From NCBI RefSeq assembly GCF_048403405.1, contig NZ_CP183129.1: a stretch of DNA of 64,000 nt; one strand, given 5' to 3'. The position numbers are program-made. Origin of the DNA: Escherichia coli (GTDB lineage Bacteria; Pseudomonadota; Gammaproteobacteria; Enterobacterales; Enterobacteriaceae). The stretch's first letter is position 1; every line of letters starts with the position of its first letter. Of this stretch, positions 1 to 6,000 are shown one piece after another.

Positions 1-3000
1 TCCCATCATGTCATTGAATTTAGACCATGAGCGATCAACCCTTGCCATATTAATGGCTTCGTCTGCTCCAAGATTTTTGGCTACGGCTTTTTTCATATCC
101 GCCGTATATGCCTTGTAGATAATATCGCTGGCTTTCTGGAGCGTATCTTTATCAACAGTGTCAGATGACGCAATAAATCGCTTTCGAAGATCGGTTCTGT
201 TTTCCCTCGCCAGGCGCAGGTCATTTGGTCCGCTGGTGATATCGTCTTTAAATTGCTGCAAGACTTTTACCGCGGCTCTATCCTGAGATTTGCCCGGGCG
301 GCTTAACACGGCAATCTGATTGTCGATAGCTTTTACCGTGTTTGAGAGATCGACAGGGGTATCCCCCATAGCGTCAATTATGCGGTTATATCGCTTTCCT
401 GCTGCCTCAATGAATTTTTGTTGCCCTTTAGTCGCAGATTCATAAAGCTGTTTATCAGAAATGCCACCCAGACCATCGCTAAATGTTCTGACTAAATTTT
501 CTCGTGCTTGTTGTTGATTCAGCCGATTCTTACCGGTTCCAAAAAAAGGAACTCTTTCGCCTAATGTCTGAGCCTGACTCTGCATAAAGGTTTTATCTTT
601 CAGCATGTCACTGGTCATTAACGGCAGATTTCTTTCCGATGCAAAGTCGACAGCAGCCTTTGCTTCAGGCGACATATCACCACGAACAGCCCTCGAAACC
701 GCACTCGCTGTATTTTCCAGCCCCTTACCAATACCACCAATGCCAGCAGAAATTACCGTTTGTAACGGATCAATATCTTCTCCACCAGCAAGGCTGGTGG
801 CTCCCTGTAGTGCTAAATCTGTAGCTGCTGATTTTCCTATGGCACCAAGCACCGTTCCAGCCCTGCCCGCTGGTGTAAACGCCAACGCATTAGCAAGAAA
901 CGAAGTCAGGTCTTGCGGTGATAAACCCGGCTTGTTCAGGGCATAATCACCTGATGGCAGAGAAACGATAGTATTCCCCTTCTCATCCTGCCTTAATGTC
1001 GCCCCCATTCCCTGAAGAATCTTTTCCTGAGACGCGTCAGAGCCGAAAAGTTGGGACCATCCAGCCTTTAGGGCATCCATGCTTAGTGAGTTCAATTCTG
1101 GGGCAGAGGCGACATTTTGCAGTCTCTCCATCTCTGAAGTCATTCGGCTTTCGCCTGTTATAGCATCGCGCATCGCAGCCCCAAGACTGGCTCCCTGTTC
1201 TGCTGAACGCTCAAGCCCCTCTCTTTGCTGAGTAGCTAACTTTGCATACCCTGACGCAAGAGAATTATCAGATGATGTATGTTGAATATTTTGAGTTGCT
1301 GATTGGGATCGGTCTATTTCATTCGTTGATGGTAGTGGATAGGCAGCATAAAAAGCCTGCTTAGCCTGCTCTACACTTTCTCCGGCTTGCGGGGCAACGA
1401 CTTCATTGAAGTATTGCTCCTGAGCCTGCGCTTTTTGTTCTGGTGCTAACGCCTGATACTGTGGAGAGGCGATAACATCTTTCCATGCTTTAGCCATTAA
1501 TCACCCCATAGTGAAGAAAAGTTACTGCTGGCTGCTGGCTGTGATACCTGCTCAGATTGCGGCAATGTCTGCGACGAAGAAGACGTTCCTCTGTCAACTG
1601 CTGAAATAACCCGCAAAGCATCATAAGCTCGACCAGAAGCAGCTTTCAGCGAATTGAACTGGTTTTCCATCTTCCGGCGCTTGGTATCAATGGTTTTTGT
1701 GGAGTCGCCAGGCTGAGGGAAATACATTTGATAATATTTTGACATTTCAGCAGGTACGATAGCTGCCCCTGTTTCCTGACGGAGTATTGCCATTATTGCG
1801 TCATTAGCATTAACAACGTATTGCTGCTCTGTTGGGCTGAGCGTTAAGTTAGCCAGCGTCCCATTACCCAAAGCATTATTAATGATCGCCACTCGCTGTG
1901 GGCTAAGCTGGTCTTTCAGTGTATCTATTGAATCAAGAGCATCCCTAACCCTGTATGCAAATCCAGCAGCTTTTTTAGCCCCTTCTGGCGACTTTTCCAT
2001 GATCTTTTGGGCTGTTGGCAAAGCTATTGGACGAAACCCATCTCCAGATATTGGCTGGTTTAGTTTTCCCTGCTCTTCACTTCCGTCTGTGTAGTATTTT
2101 GTGACAGTGCCATCATCGTTTTCTCTAACACTCATTAATTTTTTGGCGTTTGTATTAATTCCAGCCGCTGCCGCAAATGCCGCCGCCCCCTCTGGATCCG
2201 CCTTTAACATTTGAGCGTACTGATTGTAATTCTGCATTGCTGCTGTTGGTGCATATGCTGACGTTAACGCATTTGCTCGGCTAATATCCTGCCCTCTCGC
2301 CTGAAGTGCTTCGCCAGCCTGATTGCTGCGGATTGTCTCTGCCAGCCTGCCTCGCTCAATATCCCGACCTTCCATTTGATCTTTGATATTGAAATACTTC
2401 TCATGACCGAGAGAAAACAGTGCCATACTACCAGCAAGCCGCTGGAATCCCTGTGGATCATTAACATGCATTTCGGCAACAGACTCAGGAGAAATTCCCA
2501 AGCGACGCATTTCATCTTCGTTATCTGCTATGAATTTTCCAAATGCCCCAGTTCCGAGCGAAGATGCGATTTGAGCACTAGTCGCAAGATGACCAATAGA
2601 ATTTCTCTGGTCGTCATCAATAAAGCCCATCCCTTTCTGAACGCTTTCAAATTCTTCTGGATACTCAGAAATAAGACTGCGCATTTTGTTTCTGTCTCCA
2701 GACTCAAAAGCCCCGGCATATGCTTTCTGAAACTCTGATTTACGCTGTTGTTGACGTGCCTGCTGATTAATCTCAGCAACGCCTCTTAGCCCCTGTAGCG
2801 CCATTAAACCTACGTTTGGCTGCTGCTGATACTGCACAGGCTGAGGAACGGAAGAACGAGGAGCATTATCATTTTGCGGTGCCATGCTAGGCAGCCCGCC
2901 AAGTTGCCATGTCGTCATTAGAATCCAAGCCCCCCAACAAGACCAATAAGCCCACCACCAATAGCCCCGGCGACATTACCTATACCCGGAACAACGGAAC

Positions 3001-6000
3001 CAAGTTGCGCACCCGCTAAAGCGCCTGATGCCGCCCCACCAATACCACGCGCAAGACTGGATGGCTGCTGCGCCTGACCTGCACGAATAGCGCCAAGCCC
3101 CTGCAAGAGTTGTCCGGTATTATTGGCGTAGTTTTGCCCTGCTGTTGCCTGCCCTGATGCCGCATTCATCCCGACATTTAGCAGGTTTCCATAATTTTGC
3201 ATTTGCCCACTAAGCCAATTGTTATAAAGCATGGGCGCAATGGAAGATAACTGGTTACTGGTAGCTGTTGAGCCAAGCCCCCCGGTAGCTTCTGCTGAGA
3301 CAAGGTTCTGATAACGGGCCTGATCTGCCTGTGTTTTATATAAACCAGAACCAAAGAAATCATTCGCGGCTTTATTCTGCCCTTCCAGAGTCATCAGTCC
3401 TTGCAGTTGTTGTAAAGCAGGCAATCCGACTTCTGCATACGGCTTGAGATTATTCATCACCGTATTCCACTGCTCGCGCTGCAAATCAATTGCCTGCTGC
3501 TGGGCCTTCGCCTGGGCTTTAGAGGCACCACCATCACCGCCTTTTTCGTATACGGCACGATTGAGATGTTTATGAGCTATATGGGTAATTAACATTCGCT
3601 GAGTTCCTTATATTGTTGCCGTGTTAACTGATAAAGCGTTACGCCGACGGGTTTACCACATCTGATATATGCATCGGCCAGGTGACCAACACGGGTAGCG
3701 CCAAGCAAACGGATAATTGCCCGTCCGTATTTCGTGGTGTCAGGAACCATGGTGATGCTGTTAAGGAATGGTGAGTTTTCGAGAAGCCATTTGCAGAACA
3801 ATCGATGCCCTTGCAGTGCATATTCACCACGGAATCCGGGGTCGTACACCGCATGGCATTCAACAATGCTATGCCAGAAGTTACGCACTTCATGAACGCC
3901 TGTCAGCACTAATCCTTCGTAGATGCCGAGATATACCGCATCAGGCTTGATGTAGTACGTGTGCCCCGGCTCAACAATATTTTCGGTATTGCCAGGCTCG
4001 TTAAGAAAGGCCTGTAATCGCACCGGGTTATCAATAAATTTTAGTTCCATGCGGTGCCATCCGTTTTCACATACAGCCTGCCAGCGCCTTATCTATTAAC
4101 CCTCGTGCAATTTCATGCAGAGTTGGCGCTACTCCAATTCCTGATTTTTTACGCTGCTCTTCCTGAATTTTCTTTATCGCTTCCATTTGCTTCTCACTTA
4201 TCAATACCGGCTTTACTGAAATAGCCATAACGCCCCCTTAGAACTGTATAAAACAACAGTTATTATAGTTTCGCAAATCGCAATATTCATCATCGTAATT
4301 GCAAAATATGAAACAAATAGCACAAAAAAATGCCACCGCTCAGTAGCTGGTGGCATCGTTCTGTGTGTCAGGTTTTGACAGGTTTTTTATGGACTCTAAA
4401 AACTATATTTATGGTGTCGCATTACTCTTTACGGCAGGCGCTTTTCAGTTCTGCCCTTGCTTCTGGCTCCATTGGTAATTTGATTCGCGATCAGCTATGC
4501 GGATGGTTTGCTGAACAGGCATAACAACTTCTCAGAGGCTGTTTTTTGAACTACGAAAATTTCGTAGTGCTCACTTTCAAAAACGTCACGCCCTTGTACA
4601 CAGGATTTTACGAAAGTCTCGTAAAACACTCTCTGATGCCAGCCAGGTGTTGTGCGCATCAATTCAGTCACATTGTGTTGGTTCAAAATACCGTGTTGTT
4701 GGTTCAGTGTTGGTTCAATAAAAAGAATAAAATCCTTATAAAACAATACTCTTTACAAATTGAACCAACTGAACCAACTGAACCAACACCTTTTCTACGC
4801 ACATGAAGAAGCTCATTCTTCAGATGAGTTATAATCTCCTGGCTGGTAATTGAGTACATAAACGTTTATTTGTCGTCCCTGAATACGTGGTGATTTTCTT
4901 TGGTATCCACGACCGCTGTTTGGTGGGGTTAGCATCCCGGCTTTTTTCAACACTTCAGCAAACTGTTTTGCGTTGAAACCACATGCGATCTCCTTTTCAA
5001 ATGTGGCCGGGAATGTGTAGAAAATCATTGGGCTTTCGTCATGTTCTCCACGCTGACGGTATCCGGCTAAATCTTTGATGGGCAAATCTGCCGGGCTGTA
5101 TGGAAATGGTGCAAAACGGCTAAGCCCATAGGCATTAAGAAATGCCTCCGTTTGTTCAATAATCTGCTGATGCTCTTTGTTACCTGTGCCGAACTCGCGC
5201 AACCATGCGTTATAGCTGTGCTGTATCGCATCACGGCATGTCTGAGCATCCCAGCCTGTTACAACCTCGCCTAACAACAATGCGGCCTCCAGAATGGCAA
5301 ATCGCGCGGCTACACGGTGAACCTGCTCACCATAATCGGGTGGGATCAGGCTTCTCCATCTGCTTTCGCAATCACGAACAGTTTTAATAGCCTGTTGCTG
5401 GTGGTCTGCCAGCCATTTAATCCACTCACGCCCGGCTGCGCCATGGTGATGCTGGTAAGCGTCTTTCAGTGCGTCTGCGTGCTGTTTTCCGTTCTGGTAA
5501 TCGTGAAAGCGTACTGCTTTACTCAACGGAATATTCAGCAGTCGCACCAGTTGCCCGGCTTTGGTTTTTCGCCCGGAAGTAGCGATAAATGTTTCTAAAT
5601 CCATTTCTCCGGTGCTGATTGCCACTGTACGCCAGCGTTTTAGATCCCGGTTTCCACCATCTTTAGCGCCTTGCAGTTTCCCTACACCGTTAAATAACGC
5701 ATAGGCAGACTGTGAAACGCTGACAGGATCAGCGCCCTGACCAACTTCATCAAGCGGCATTAGTCCGTCATTGTGGGCGGCGGCCTCATTTGCCAGCCCC
5801 AGCGCGGTTCCGTACCTCGTCAGCCGCAGTAAATCAGGGTTGCCGTATAAGCTGCTCGCCACGTTTGCCGTGGTGGTCTTACCTGCGCTCGACTGCTCAT
5901 AGAAATGAATGCCGAACCCGTCAGCGCCCACCAGCCCAATCAATGGTGCTGCCAGTGCTGCGCCGATCCCGGTCATCATTGAATAGTTACCAAAGGCCAG

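What the first reader, a model, noticed from the sequence alone, without database searches (positions are those of the whole stretch)
1..4050. Coupled operon of large Q/A/G-rich proteins downstream of the replication module
Four overlapping minus-strand genes (153 aa, 225 aa, 473 aa, and a partial one of at least 499 aa) form one operon with its own small regulator (4067-4228) and a terminator separating it from the primase module. The 225/473/>499-aa series and the membrane-inserting C-terminus of the 225-aa protein are reminiscent of P22-type ejection proteins, but I recall those sizes from memory and could not compare sequences. The context is wrong for a lambdoid prophage: the genes are co-directional with int and sit right after a primase, with no terminase, portal or capsid genes in the window. 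So this is either a satellite carrying ejection-type proteins or a multi-gene accessory system.
Basis: inference. Interest (0 to 1): 0.7.

Follow-up and report, generated by a model that had tools for sequence, protein, structure and literature searches.

The report
Phage satellite carrying its own ejection proteins
These genes are a complete set of P22-type DNA-ejection proteins carried by an 18-kb E. coli phage satellite (an EcCIMP1-family chromosomal island described in 2025), not by a phage, and why a satellite brings its own DNA-injection channel is still untested.

Summary
Four tightly coupled minus-strand genes (153, 225, 473 and 701 aa; the last runs 608 nt past the left end of the window) are clear homologues of P22 gp14, gp7, gp20 and gp16, in the same order.

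They are not in a prophage. They sit in a 17.95-kb island bounded by att repeats next to yicC, with integrase, AlpA, antirepressor, primase and iterons. It has no terminase, portal, coat or tail genes, including beyond the left edge of the window.

The island is 97.4% identical over 9.3 kb to EcCIMP1, a PICI shown in 2025 to be mobilised by the P22-like phage Kapi1. That paper noted "DNA transfer"-like genes but did not explain them.

Across 18 family members the backbone is nearly identical, while gp20 and gp16 alleles are swapped with P22-like prophages. Short versions keep exactly the gp20+gp16 pair.

Every member examined also carries a 107-nt copy of the pac-containing part of the P22 terS gene.

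Best reading: the satellite loads its own injection conduit into helper-built capsids. Whether this lets it bypass SieA-type exclusion is open.

Verdict: a new member of a known kind, of moderate interest.

The parts
1..1497 (-). gp16-like ejection protein, C-terminal 499 codons of a 701-aa ORF (start lies 608 nt left of the window)
   Evidence: phrog_770 DNA transfer protein, E=2e-161. BLASTP against P22 gp16: 30% identity over 482 aa, E=1e-52. PF26808 Phage_P22_gp16 is recorded on same-length products in sister loci. 94% aa identity to gp16 of a true P22-like prophage in ExPEC XM. Hydrophobic segment at residues 625-643.
1497..2918 (-). gp20-like ejection protein (473 aa)
   Evidence: phrog_917, E=2e-111. 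Pfam PF16928 Inj_translocase, E=1e-57. 38% identity to the N-terminal half of P22 gp20, E=4e-45. 52% identity over 440 aa to APSE phage P33. Mosaic among islands.
2918..3595 (-). gp7-like ejection protein (225 aa)
   Evidence: Pfam PF25688 P22_gp7, E=2e-72. phrog_598, E=1e-69. 56% identity to P22 gp7, E=5e-54. The Y-x-E/KGG junction that aligns with the P22 gp7 propeptide cleavage site is conserved. Gly-rich hydrophobic C-terminus.
3589..4050 (-). gp14-like protein (DUF2824, 153 aa), GNAT-like fold
   Evidence: Pfam PF11039, E=2e-60. phrog_651, E=2e-65. 24% identity to P22 gp14 and 83% to Kapi1 gp14. AF2 model pLDDT 91. Foldseek top hits are SpeG N-acetyltransferases, TM 0.71-0.78, probability 1.00.
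4067..4228 (-). orf53, conserved first gene of the operon, function unknown
   Evidence: Strong SD (GGGGG) 6 nt before the ATG. Identical protein in EcCIMP1 and in all 10 sampled contexts. No family, phage or fold match. The AF2 model shows an N-terminal extended segment plus two helices.
4229..4625 (-). Nearly invariant non-coding leader of the operon. Contains a consensus TATAAT (4262-4267) with a weak -35, a terminator hairpin plus T-run (about 4324-4354), a 22-nt terS-like motif (4383-4404) and two palindromes (4606-4626, 4551-4567).
   Evidence: Alignment of 5 family members, including one with a different replicase. Sequence read directly. Terminator scan. terS motif. No similarity to phage late promoters.
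4674..4794 (.). Iteron block (3 direct GTTGGTTCA plus 3 inverted TGAACCAAC), the probable replication origin, just 3' of the primase gene
   Evidence: An inverted second copy lies left of the window, upstream of perC (L001 17534-17666).
4813..7569 (-). Primase/replicase (Zn-ribbon, TOPRIM, DUF927)
   Evidence: phrog_1139, E=6e-178. Pfam families on same-length products in sister loci.
10345..10451 (+). 107-nt fragment of a P22-type small-terminase gene that begins exactly at the 22-bp pac site. Candidate packaging signal.
   Evidence: 87% identity to P22 nt 4-110 and 91% to E. coli P22-like phages, always matching terS nt 268-374. Present in all 7 family loci tested. The 22-mer is invariant among the 4 islands aligned.
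10258..10281 (-). 24-nt exact match to the terS gene of the ExPEC XM P22-like prophage (a second terS type)
   Evidence: Present in all 7 family loci as a 24-29-nt match of 97-100% identity (exact in six, 96.6% over 29 nt in L007).
12045..12248 (-). AlpA-family regulator
   Evidence: phrog_66. PF05930 on same-length products in sister loci. int-alpA RNA (Rfam RF02996) at 13349-13415.
13424..14683 (-). Tyrosine integrase
   Evidence: phrog_1, E=1e-63. Annotation.
14741..14764 (+). attR copy of the flanking direct repeat ATTATGTACACC..TATGTACACG. The attL copy is 17,931 bp to the left, outside the window.
   Evidence: The same repeat pair flanks the island at the same locus in strain OkiPb01692.

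Best explanation
The region is the ejection-protein (E-protein) operon of an EcCIMP1-family phage-inducible chromosomal island, a satellite of P22-like podophages, integrated beside yicC in E. coli.

Shown here:
- The four genes are homologues of P22 gp14 (a GNAT-fold non-virion factor), gp7, gp20 and gp16, in the phage order.
- They lie behind their own conserved leader and orf53.
- They sit in an island that has an integrase, AlpA, a primase with iterons and a pac-containing terS fragment, but no capsid, portal, terminase or tail genes.

Shown by others for the 97%-identical EcCIMP1:
- Helper induction triggers AlpA-dependent excision.
- The island is transferred in helper particles.

Inferred:
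- After induction the operon is expressed.
- The satellite-encoded gp7, gp20 and gp16 are loaded into helper-built procapsids. Experiment shows P22 procapsids accept very divergent foreign E-protein sets.
- About 2.2-2.4 island copies are packaged per headful from the pac mimic.
- At the next cell these proteins build the trans-envelope DNA conduit.

The satellite therefore brings its own matched gp20/gp16 pair, and so its own DNA-delivery specificity.
For: - **Homology and order:**; PF26808 on same-length gp16 in sister loci.
- **Island context, no morphogenesis genes:**. att repeats.
- **Match to EcCIMP1:** 97.4% identity over 9.3 kb with the same architecture.
- **EcCIMP1 experiments:** it excises only with helper Kapi1, needs alpA and int, and is transduced by Kapi1 (PMC11773190).
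- **Circular form:** a 12,152-bp circular family member was assembled as a plasmid.
- **Intact ORFs:** of 18 family loci read, 15 have an intact gp16. One is frameshifted, one is deleted and one is cut by a contig end.
- **Purifying selection:** dN/dS is 0.11-0.30.
- **Allele exchange:** dS for E genes is 0.26-0.35 against 0.02-0.03 for the primase. At least three gp16 types cannot be aligned to one another, gp20 is mosaic, and one gp16 allele is 94% identical to that of a true P22-like prophage.
- **Short cassettes:** they retain exactly gp20+gp16. Leavitt et al. showed this pair must be cognate, whereas gp7 is interchangeable, and that foreign sets are incorporated and functional (PMC10883804).
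- **Not redundant copies:** EcCIMP1 gp20 and gp16 are only 26% and 24% identical to those of its proven helper.
- **Packaging signal:** pac-containing terS fragment in all 7 members tested.
- **Rarity of the context:** among GTDB species representatives, 13 of 14 gp7 loci lie in full P22-like head-tail modules, and only the Escherichia satellite type does not.
Against: - No experiment shows that the island's E-proteins are expressed after induction or enter virions.
- EcCIMP1 did not change Kapi1 titres, and its transduction frequency was low (about 5e3 per ml). A large effect on particles is therefore not evident with that helper.
- Procapsids assemble before DNA is chosen. Satellite E-proteins cannot be targeted to satellite-filled heads, and mixing with non-cognate helper gp20/gp16 could be harmful.
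- The cassette is dispensable for circularisation (12-kb circle with a gp20 stub) and is occasionally inactivated.
- Low dN/dS may partly have been inherited from the phage donors, because alleles arrive by recombination.
- The operon's promoter and its inducer are not identified, and there is no similarity to phage late promoters.
Confidence: 0.6

Rival explanations
1. Helper interference. The satellite's non-cognate gp20 and gp16 co-assemble with the helper's and make a share of helper virions non-infectious, as other satellites damage their helpers.
For: P22 particles carrying a mismatched gp16/gp20 pair are non-infectious even though the foreign gp16 is assembled (PMC10883804). The satellite alleles are very different from those of the proven helper.
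Against: Kapi1 plaque titres from induced lysogens were unchanged by EcCIMP1 (PMC11773190). Poisoned conduits would equally disable the satellite's own particles.
Confidence: 0.1
2. Resident-state defence. The cassette, or genes travelling with it, blocks DNA entry by superinfecting P22-like phages.
For: EcCIMP1 adds to superinfection immunity of Kapi1 lysogens, and the responsible gene is unknown. Directly downstream of gp16, on the opposite strand, the island carries a 129-aa protein with four hydrophobic segments. This protein is 88% identical to the gene at the sieA position of the ExPEC XM P22-like prophage.
Against: E-proteins act from the virion. No signal peptides were noticed on reading the sequences, and no prediction tool was run. 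There are no PADLOC hits. The 129-aa protein lacks the FxRYPxEAxxFNK SieA motif and has no BLASTP similarity to P22 SieA. If it does exclude phages, that is a function of the neighbouring gene, not of the four genes in the finding.
Confidence: 0.1
3. Packaging or capsid-redirection module, as suggested in the EcCIMP1 paper from its position downstream of the primase.
For: Its position matches where classical PICIs keep packaging genes. The authors proposed this for EcCIMP1_017-019.
Against: The homologues are ejection proteins. P22 particles lacking them, or carrying non-functional sets, still form as DNA-filled virion-like particles. A separate pac-containing terS fragment can account for packaging. 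No terminase, scaffold or size-determination homologue is present.
Confidence: 0.05
4. Inert remnant of a degraded P22-like prophage that happens to lie next to an island.
For: The cassette is phage-derived. It is sometimes frameshifted or deleted.
Against: The same junction (leader, orf53, cassette) is found inside att-bounded islands at two integration sites and with two replicase types. The backbone is present in 361 of 5,426 complete genomes. ORFs are intact in most copies, and orf53 and the leader are absent from phages. No other prophage debris is present.
Confidence: 0.05

Closest known systems
EcCIMP1, a PICI of E. coli MP1 (Pick, Stadel and Raivio, ISME J 2025, PMC11773190)
   Same: Same architecture gene for gene: int, AlpA, Ant, DUF4222, Ash, small ORFs, TOPRIM/DUF927 primase, orf53 (identical protein), gp14, gp7, gp20, gp16, then perC. 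97.4% nucleotide identity over 9.3 kb.
   Different: Different integrase and att site (yicC intergenic against tRNA-Thr). The gp20 allele is different beyond residue 40. The gp16 is unrelated (701 aa, against 906 aa with an SLT lytic transglycosylase domain). The paper labels the genes "DNA transfer" or hypothetical and proposes a packaging role. It never uses the word "ejection".
P22-like phage E-protein block, genes 14-7-20-16 (Lederbergvirus, Sf6, HK620, APSE)
   Same: All four proteins are homologous, in the same order and tightly spaced. They share the Q/A/G-rich composition, the gp7 propeptide junction and the mosaic gp20.
   Different: In phages the block follows tail-needle gene 26 inside the late operon (13 of 13 phage-type loci). 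Here it follows a primase, an ori and a satellite-specific leader plus orf53, with no other virion genes.
Capsid-forming PICIs and P4 (my own knowledge: Alqurainy et al. 2023; P4 Sid/Psu)
   Same: These are satellites that encode some virion components of their own and take the rest from a helper.
   Different: Those elements encode capsid, packaging or size-determination proteins. This family encodes only the internal ejection proteins and uses helper capsids unchanged in size (inferred from an island length of about 18-20 kb against a headful of about 43 kb).
P22 SieA exclusion system (Leavitt et al., mBio 2024, PMC10883804)
   Same: Its targets are the C-terminal parts of gp20 and gp16, which are the two proteins that vary most among satellites and are kept in the short cassettes. 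A membrane protein gene sits at the sieA position next to the island's gp16.
   Different: The island's 129-aa membrane protein is not a recognisable type A, B or C SieA. No exclusion test exists.

Membership tests
P22-type ejection-protein cassette (gp14, gp7, gp20, gp16) | Each protein matches the family profile or the P22 protein | tested here: met
   PF11039 at 2e-60, PF25688 at 2e-72, PF16928 at 1e-57. PHROGs 651, 598, 917 and 770 at 2e-65 to 2e-161. BLASTP against P22 at 1e-8, 5e-54, 4e-45 and 1e-52. gp16 had no hit in the Pfam copy of profile_search, but PF26808 is recorded for same-length products.
P22-type ejection-protein cassette (gp14, gp7, gp20, gp16) | Gene order 14-7-20-16, co-directional and tightly spaced | tested here: met
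   overlaps of 7, 1 and 1 nt here. P22 has gaps of 2 and 10 nt and one 1-nt overlap.
P22-type ejection-protein cassette (gp14, gp7, gp20, gp16) | Lies in a late virion-assembly operon, downstream of the tail needle gene, with terminase, portal and coat genes upstream | tested here: not met
   Upstream are orf53, a leader, the ori and a primase. No morphogenesis genes lie within the island or 20 kb of flanks. By contrast, 13 of 13 phage-type loci have the full module.
P22-type ejection-protein cassette (gp14, gp7, gp20, gp16) | gp7, gp20 and gp16 are packaged in virions and released before the DNA | not testable with these tools
   Needs virion proteomics or ejection assays.
P22-type ejection-protein cassette (gp14, gp7, gp20, gp16) | gp7 N-terminal propeptide (20 aa removed by OpdA in P22) | tested here: inconclusive
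   The junction Y-x-E/KGG is conserved in alignment A3, and the P22 annotation records the cleavage. Cleavage itself was not tested.
PICI, EcCIMP1 subfamily | Integrase at one end, and the element is bounded by att direct repeats | tested here: met
   Integrase at 13424-14683. A 24-nt repeat pair lies 17,931 bp apart, and the same pair is found in a second strain.
PICI, EcCIMP1 subfamily | AlpA-family master regulator next to int | tested here: met
   phrog_66. PF05930 on same-length products. Rfam int-alpA RNA at 60.6 bits, above its gathering score of 35.8.
PICI, EcCIMP1 subfamily | Own primase/replicase with an adjacent origin | tested here: met
   phrog_1139 at 6e-178. Iteron block immediately 3' of the primase gene. 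Origin activity is inferred.
PICI, EcCIMP1 subfamily | Backbone sequence identity to the type element | tested here: met
   97.4% over 9,316 nt.
PICI, EcCIMP1 subfamily | Helper-dependent excision, packaging and transfer | not testable with these tools
   Shown for EcCIMP1 with Kapi1. Supporting evidence here: a circular 12-kb member and a pac-containing terS fragment.
Defective P22-like or lambdoid prophage | Remnants of head, tail, lysis or immunity (cI/cro/Q) modules around the cassette | tested here: not met
   None in the annotation or in PHROG scans of island proteins.
T7-type internal core proteins (gp14, gp15, gp16) | Sequence similarity to the solved T7 ejectosome proteins | tested here: not met
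   phmmer of all four proteins against all PDB chains found no hit at E<=0.01.
Known anti-phage defence systems (PADLOC) | A match to any defence-system protein model | tested here: not met
   No hit for the four proteins or orf53.

The most novel reading that the evidence does not exclude
The satellite carries its own gp20/gp16 conduit pair as a "private key". Particles made in its presence can deliver DNA into cells whose resident P22-like prophage expresses SieA-type (or analogous inner-membrane) exclusion. Those helper lysogens are exactly the cells a satellite needs to reach, and a helper gains nothing from entering them. Constant swapping of gp20 and gp16 alleles among otherwise near-identical islands would then be an arms race with prophage exclusion proteins. 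This would be a satellite strategy not described before: neither capsid remodelling nor packaging redirection.
Probability: 0.25. Interest if true: 0.75.

Novelty: new member of a known kind. Interest (0 to 1): 0.5.

Why it matters
Known satellites tamper with capsid size, packaging specificity or helper gene expression. A family that supplies the DNA-injection channel instead would add a new layer to satellite-helper biology, namely control of entry. It would also link satellites to superinfection-exclusion systems such as SieA.

The family is common: its backbone is in 361 of 5,426 complete E. coli genomes, while P22-like gp10 genes are in about 910. It also carries perC-type virulence regulators, so what governs its transfer has practical weight.

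The element is already described (EcCIMP1, 2025). The value here lies in naming the cassette correctly, in showing its modular exchange with prophages, and in pointing to a candidate pac site and to concrete experiments.

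Tried and rejected
- **Solved structures:** PDB sequence searches for all four proteins found nothing.
- **NCBIfam:** no model matched.
- **PADLOC:** no hit, so I did not pursue a defence-system label.
- **orf53 as a regulator:** no Pfam, PHROG or NCBIfam hit. The AF2 monomer (pLDDT 78) shows an extended N-terminus plus two helices. That would suit a ribbon-helix-helix protein, but Foldseek against the PDB found nothing, and there is no phage homologue. 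The label is left open.
- **Helper late promoter or qut site upstream of the operon:** blastn of 4051-4812 against 50,697 phage records gave only short, unrelated hits. Rejected as far as similarity can show.
- **Structured RNA in the conserved leader:** z = -2.3, with no Rfam hit. Inconclusive.
- **The 129-aa membrane protein as SieA:** no BLASTP similarity to P22 SieA, the published motif is absent, and there is no match in the phage records.
- **"Pseudogene" gp16 in two genomes:** translation shows intact 701-aa ORFs, so these flags are annotation artefacts.
- **Does the window's own genome hold a P22-like helper?** I could not determine this. The tools list only the best place per record.

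Full report
**1. What is in the sequence**

The four minus-strand ORFs exist as described: 3589-4050 (153 aa), 2918-3595 (225 aa), 1497-2918 (473 aa), and an ORF open from 1497 to the window edge. The window is 100% identical to E. coli NZ_OZ040716.1. In that record the last ORF is 701 aa and starts 608 nt beyond the window.

Consecutive genes overlap by 7, 1 and 1 nt. The three large proteins are Q/A/G-rich (42%, 29%, 29%), like P22 gp7, gp20 and gp16. The 225-aa protein ends in a Gly-rich hydrophobic segment.

**2. Identity of the four proteins**

| Protein | Profile hits | BLASTP against the real P22 protein |
|---|---|---|
| 153 aa | phrog_651 / Pfam DUF2824, 2e-65 / 2e-60 | gp14: 24%, 1e-8 |
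| 225 aa | phrog_598 / Pfam P22_gp7, 1e-69 / 2e-72 | gp7: 56%, 5e-54 |
| 473 aa | phrog_917 / Pfam Inj_translocase, 2e-111 / 1e-57 | gp20: 38% over the N-terminal half, 4e-45 |
| 701 aa | phrog_770, 2e-161 | gp16: 30% over 482 aa, 1e-52 |

PF26808 Phage_P22_gp16 is recorded on same-length products in sister loci. The order 14-7-20-16 is that of P22.

All phage hits are to P22-like podophages: Lederbergvirus, Sf6, APSE, Sodalis and Proteus relatives. No single sequenced phage matches the whole set.

No solved structure is related by sequence, and that includes the T7 ejectosome proteins.

An AF2 model of the gp14-like protein, built on 11 homologues, has pLDDT 91. It has a GNAT fold closest to SpeG N-acetyltransferases, with TM 0.71-0.78.

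**3. Context: an island, not a prophage**

Left of the window lie three small genes, perC, an att repeat, an IS66 element and yicG. To the right of the cassette come orf53, a 580-nt non-coding stretch, a TOPRIM/DUF927 primase, small ORFs, Ash, DUF4222, AntA/B, AlpA, a 321-aa ORF, an integrase and yicC.

A 24-nt direct repeat (ATTATGTACACC..TATGTACACG) flanks a 17.95-kb segment. The same pair flanks the element at the same locus in a second strain.

No terminase, portal, scaffold, coat, tail or lysis gene is present.

**4. The element is a known kind**

A full-text search for DUF2824 led to Pick, Stadel and Raivio, ISME J 2025. EcCIMP1 is a 19,963-bp PICI of E. coli MP1.
- It excises only when the P22-like phage Kapi1 is present.
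- It needs its alpA and int genes.
- It is transduced by Kapi1 at about 5e3 particles per ml.
- It adds to superinfection immunity and does not change Kapi1 titres.

The island in the window has the same architecture gene for gene and is 97.4% identical to EcCIMP1 over 9.3 kb. That stretch runs from the first 160 nt of gp20 to alpA. The two islands have different integrases, a different gp20 body and an unrelated gp16.

The paper colours these genes "DNA transfer". It suggests a role in packaging and never uses the word "ejection". No other paper in the library links satellites with ejection proteins of their own.

**5. Family survey**

Prevalence in 5,426 complete E. coli genomes, at 80% coverage or more:

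| Query | Genomes |
|---|---|
| Backbone (primase 3' end plus leader) | 361 |
| orf53+gp14+gp7 block | 252 |
| This gp20+gp16 allele | 298 |
| P22-like gp10 genes (for comparison) | 907 |

I read 18 family loci. Cassette types were:
- gp14-gp7-gp20(473)-gp16(701)
- gp14-gp7-gp20(439)-gp16(906, with an SLT domain)
- gp14-gp7-gp20(432)-gp16(705)
- a short form, orf57-gp20(488)-gp16(701), without gp14 and gp7
- a gp20 stub in a 12,152-bp circular record assembled as a plasmid

These types combine freely with two integrase/att types and two replicase types. gp16 is intact in 15 of the 18 loci. One is frameshifted, one is deleted and one is cut by a contig end. Two "pseudogene" annotations are artefacts.

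The three gp16 types do not align with one another. gp20 is mosaic, with break points at about residues 40, 160 and 200.

One true P22-like prophage, in ExPEC XM at argW with a full head-tail module, has a gp16 that is 94% identical to the island's. The 93%-identical DNA tract also covers the adjacent small gene.

dN/dS is 0.11-0.30. However, dS of the E genes (0.26-0.35) is ten times that of the primase (0.02-0.03). The alleles are therefore imported by recombination rather than diverging in place.

Among GTDB species representatives, a gp7 profile found 14 real loci. Thirteen sit in complete P22-like morphogenesis modules, and one, an Escherichia sp., is the satellite type.

**6. Control region**

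The 390 nt upstream of orf53 are almost invariant in five members, including one with a different replicase. This makes them more conserved than the coding sequence. The region contains:
- a hairpin plus T-run at about 4324-4354
- a consensus TATAAT at 4262-4267 with a poor -35
- two palindromes sharing ACGAAA/TTTCGT half-sites
- a strong SD before orf53

It has no similarity to phage late promoters. orf53 has no family, phage or fold match, so calling it a regulator is a guess.

Immediately 3' of the primase gene lies an iteron block, the probable ori. An inverted second copy lies upstream of perC, so the pair brackets the 7-kb segment that holds the cassette.

**7. A candidate pac site (outside the finding, but it bears on the helper)**

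All seven family loci tested contain a 107-nt segment that is 86-91% identical to terS (gene 3) nt 268-374 of P22 and of E. coli P22-like phages. Homology begins exactly at the annotated 22-bp P22 pac site, and the 22-mer is invariant among the four islands aligned.

About 65 nt away, all seven loci carry a 24-29-nt match (97-100% identical, exact in six) to the terS of the ExPEC XM prophage. A 91% copy of that motif lies in the operon leader.

Kapi1 has an Sf6-type terS and matches neither fragment. This may explain its low transfer of EcCIMP1 (inference). It also suggests that phages with P22-type terS are the efficient helpers.

**8. Mechanism**

Leavitt et al., mBio 2024, established the following:
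- P22 virions accept and use very divergent foreign E-protein sets.
- gp7 is interchangeable on its own.
- gp16 and gp20 must be a cognate pair.
- SieA, an inner-membrane exclusion protein, is escaped through changes in the C-terminal parts of gp16 and gp20, or by the HK620 set.

The family data fit this closely. The unit that is swapped, and that survives in the short cassettes, is gp20+gp16. The satellite's alleles are far from those of the proven helper, at 26% and 24% identity.

I therefore favour this reading: the satellite loads its own matched conduit into helper-built procapsids. No capsid resizing is needed. At 18-20 kb, about 2.2-2.4 copies fill a P22-size headful of about 43 kb. The headful figure is from my own knowledge and the copy number is inferred.

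The benefit may be entry into excluding helper lysogens. That step is speculative (probability about 0.25).

Points against:
- There is no evidence of expression or of incorporation into virions.
- Helper titres were unchanged with EcCIMP1.
- E-proteins cannot be targeted to satellite-filled heads.
- The cassette is sometimes lost.

**9. Verdict**

The element belongs to a family published in 2025, so it is a new member of a known kind.

What remains open and testable is what a satellite gains from its own ejectosome, and whether the terS fragment is its pac site.

Noticed in passing
window 10345-10451 (+) and 10258-10281; also 4383-4404: A 107-nt fragment of the P22-type small-terminase gene starts exactly at the 22-bp pac site. 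Next to it is a 24-nt exact match to a second terS type (ExPEC XM prophage), with a 91% copy of that motif in the E-operon leader. All 7 family loci tested carry the fragments, including EcCIMP1, whose packaging mechanism was reported as unknown. Kapi1's Sf6-type terS matches neither.
   Followed up: partly
window 4674-4794 and L001 17534-17666 (2.3-2.5 kb left of the window): The iteron block 3' of the primase (probable ori) has a second, inverted copy upstream of perC (96% over 55 nt). The pair brackets the 7-kb segment holding orf53, the E-protein genes and three small genes. The same pair occurs in EcCIMP1.
   Followed up: no
L001 18984-19373 (+), 627-1016 nt left of the window: A 129-aa protein with four hydrophobic segments lies directly downstream of gp16 on the opposite strand. 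It is 88% identical to the gene at the sieA position of the ExPEC XM P22-like prophage and was co-transferred with gp16. It lacks the SieA motif and has no match in the phage records. It is a candidate exclusion protein. EcCIMP1 instead has a 232-aa lipoprotein-like gene there.
   Followed up: partly
window 3589-4050 (-): The gp14-like DUF2824 protein is predicted with high confidence (pLDDT 91) to have a GNAT fold closest to SpeG polyamine N-acetyltransferases. Only R74-G75 are invariant where the acetyl-CoA motif would be expected.
   Followed up: partly
window 9991-10078 (-), 10141-10218 (-), 13349-13415 (-): Rfam hits above gathering score: C4 antisense RNA (79.5 bits), isrK (67.1 bits) and int-alpA RNA (60.6 bits). 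C4 and isrK lie inside the annotated 355-aa "Ash family" ORF, whose N-terminal third also overlaps the terS fragments. That ORF may therefore be over-extended.
   Followed up: no
L007 = NZ_CP148430.1, whole record: A 12,152-bp circular "plasmid" of strain Z1323CEC0013 is an EcCIMP1-family element (int, AlpA, Ant, Ash, primase, orf57, gp20 stub, perC). It is apparently an excised, episomal form with the cassette deleted.
   Followed up: partly
L006 16001-18106 and L008 10475-12580: gp16 genes flagged by PGAP as pseudogenes ("missing C-terminus") translate as intact 701-aa ORFs, so the flags are annotation artefacts. L030 has a genuine 1-nt deletion.
   Followed up: yes
window 4229-4625: The non-coding leader of the operon is more conserved than the flanking genes and travels with the cassette even when the replicase module differs. 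Its function (promoter/operator, RNA or packaging signal) is unexplained. The RNA folding z-score is only -2.3.
   Followed up: partly
window 28000-34000: A low-GC stretch (33-40% against about 50%). The lower-coordinate edge of the LPS core (waa/rfa) cluster was seen in the annotated record (reaches window 28000). The low-GC stretch itself was not annotated here, and that it is the same cluster is assumed. It is unrelated to the finding.
   Followed up: no
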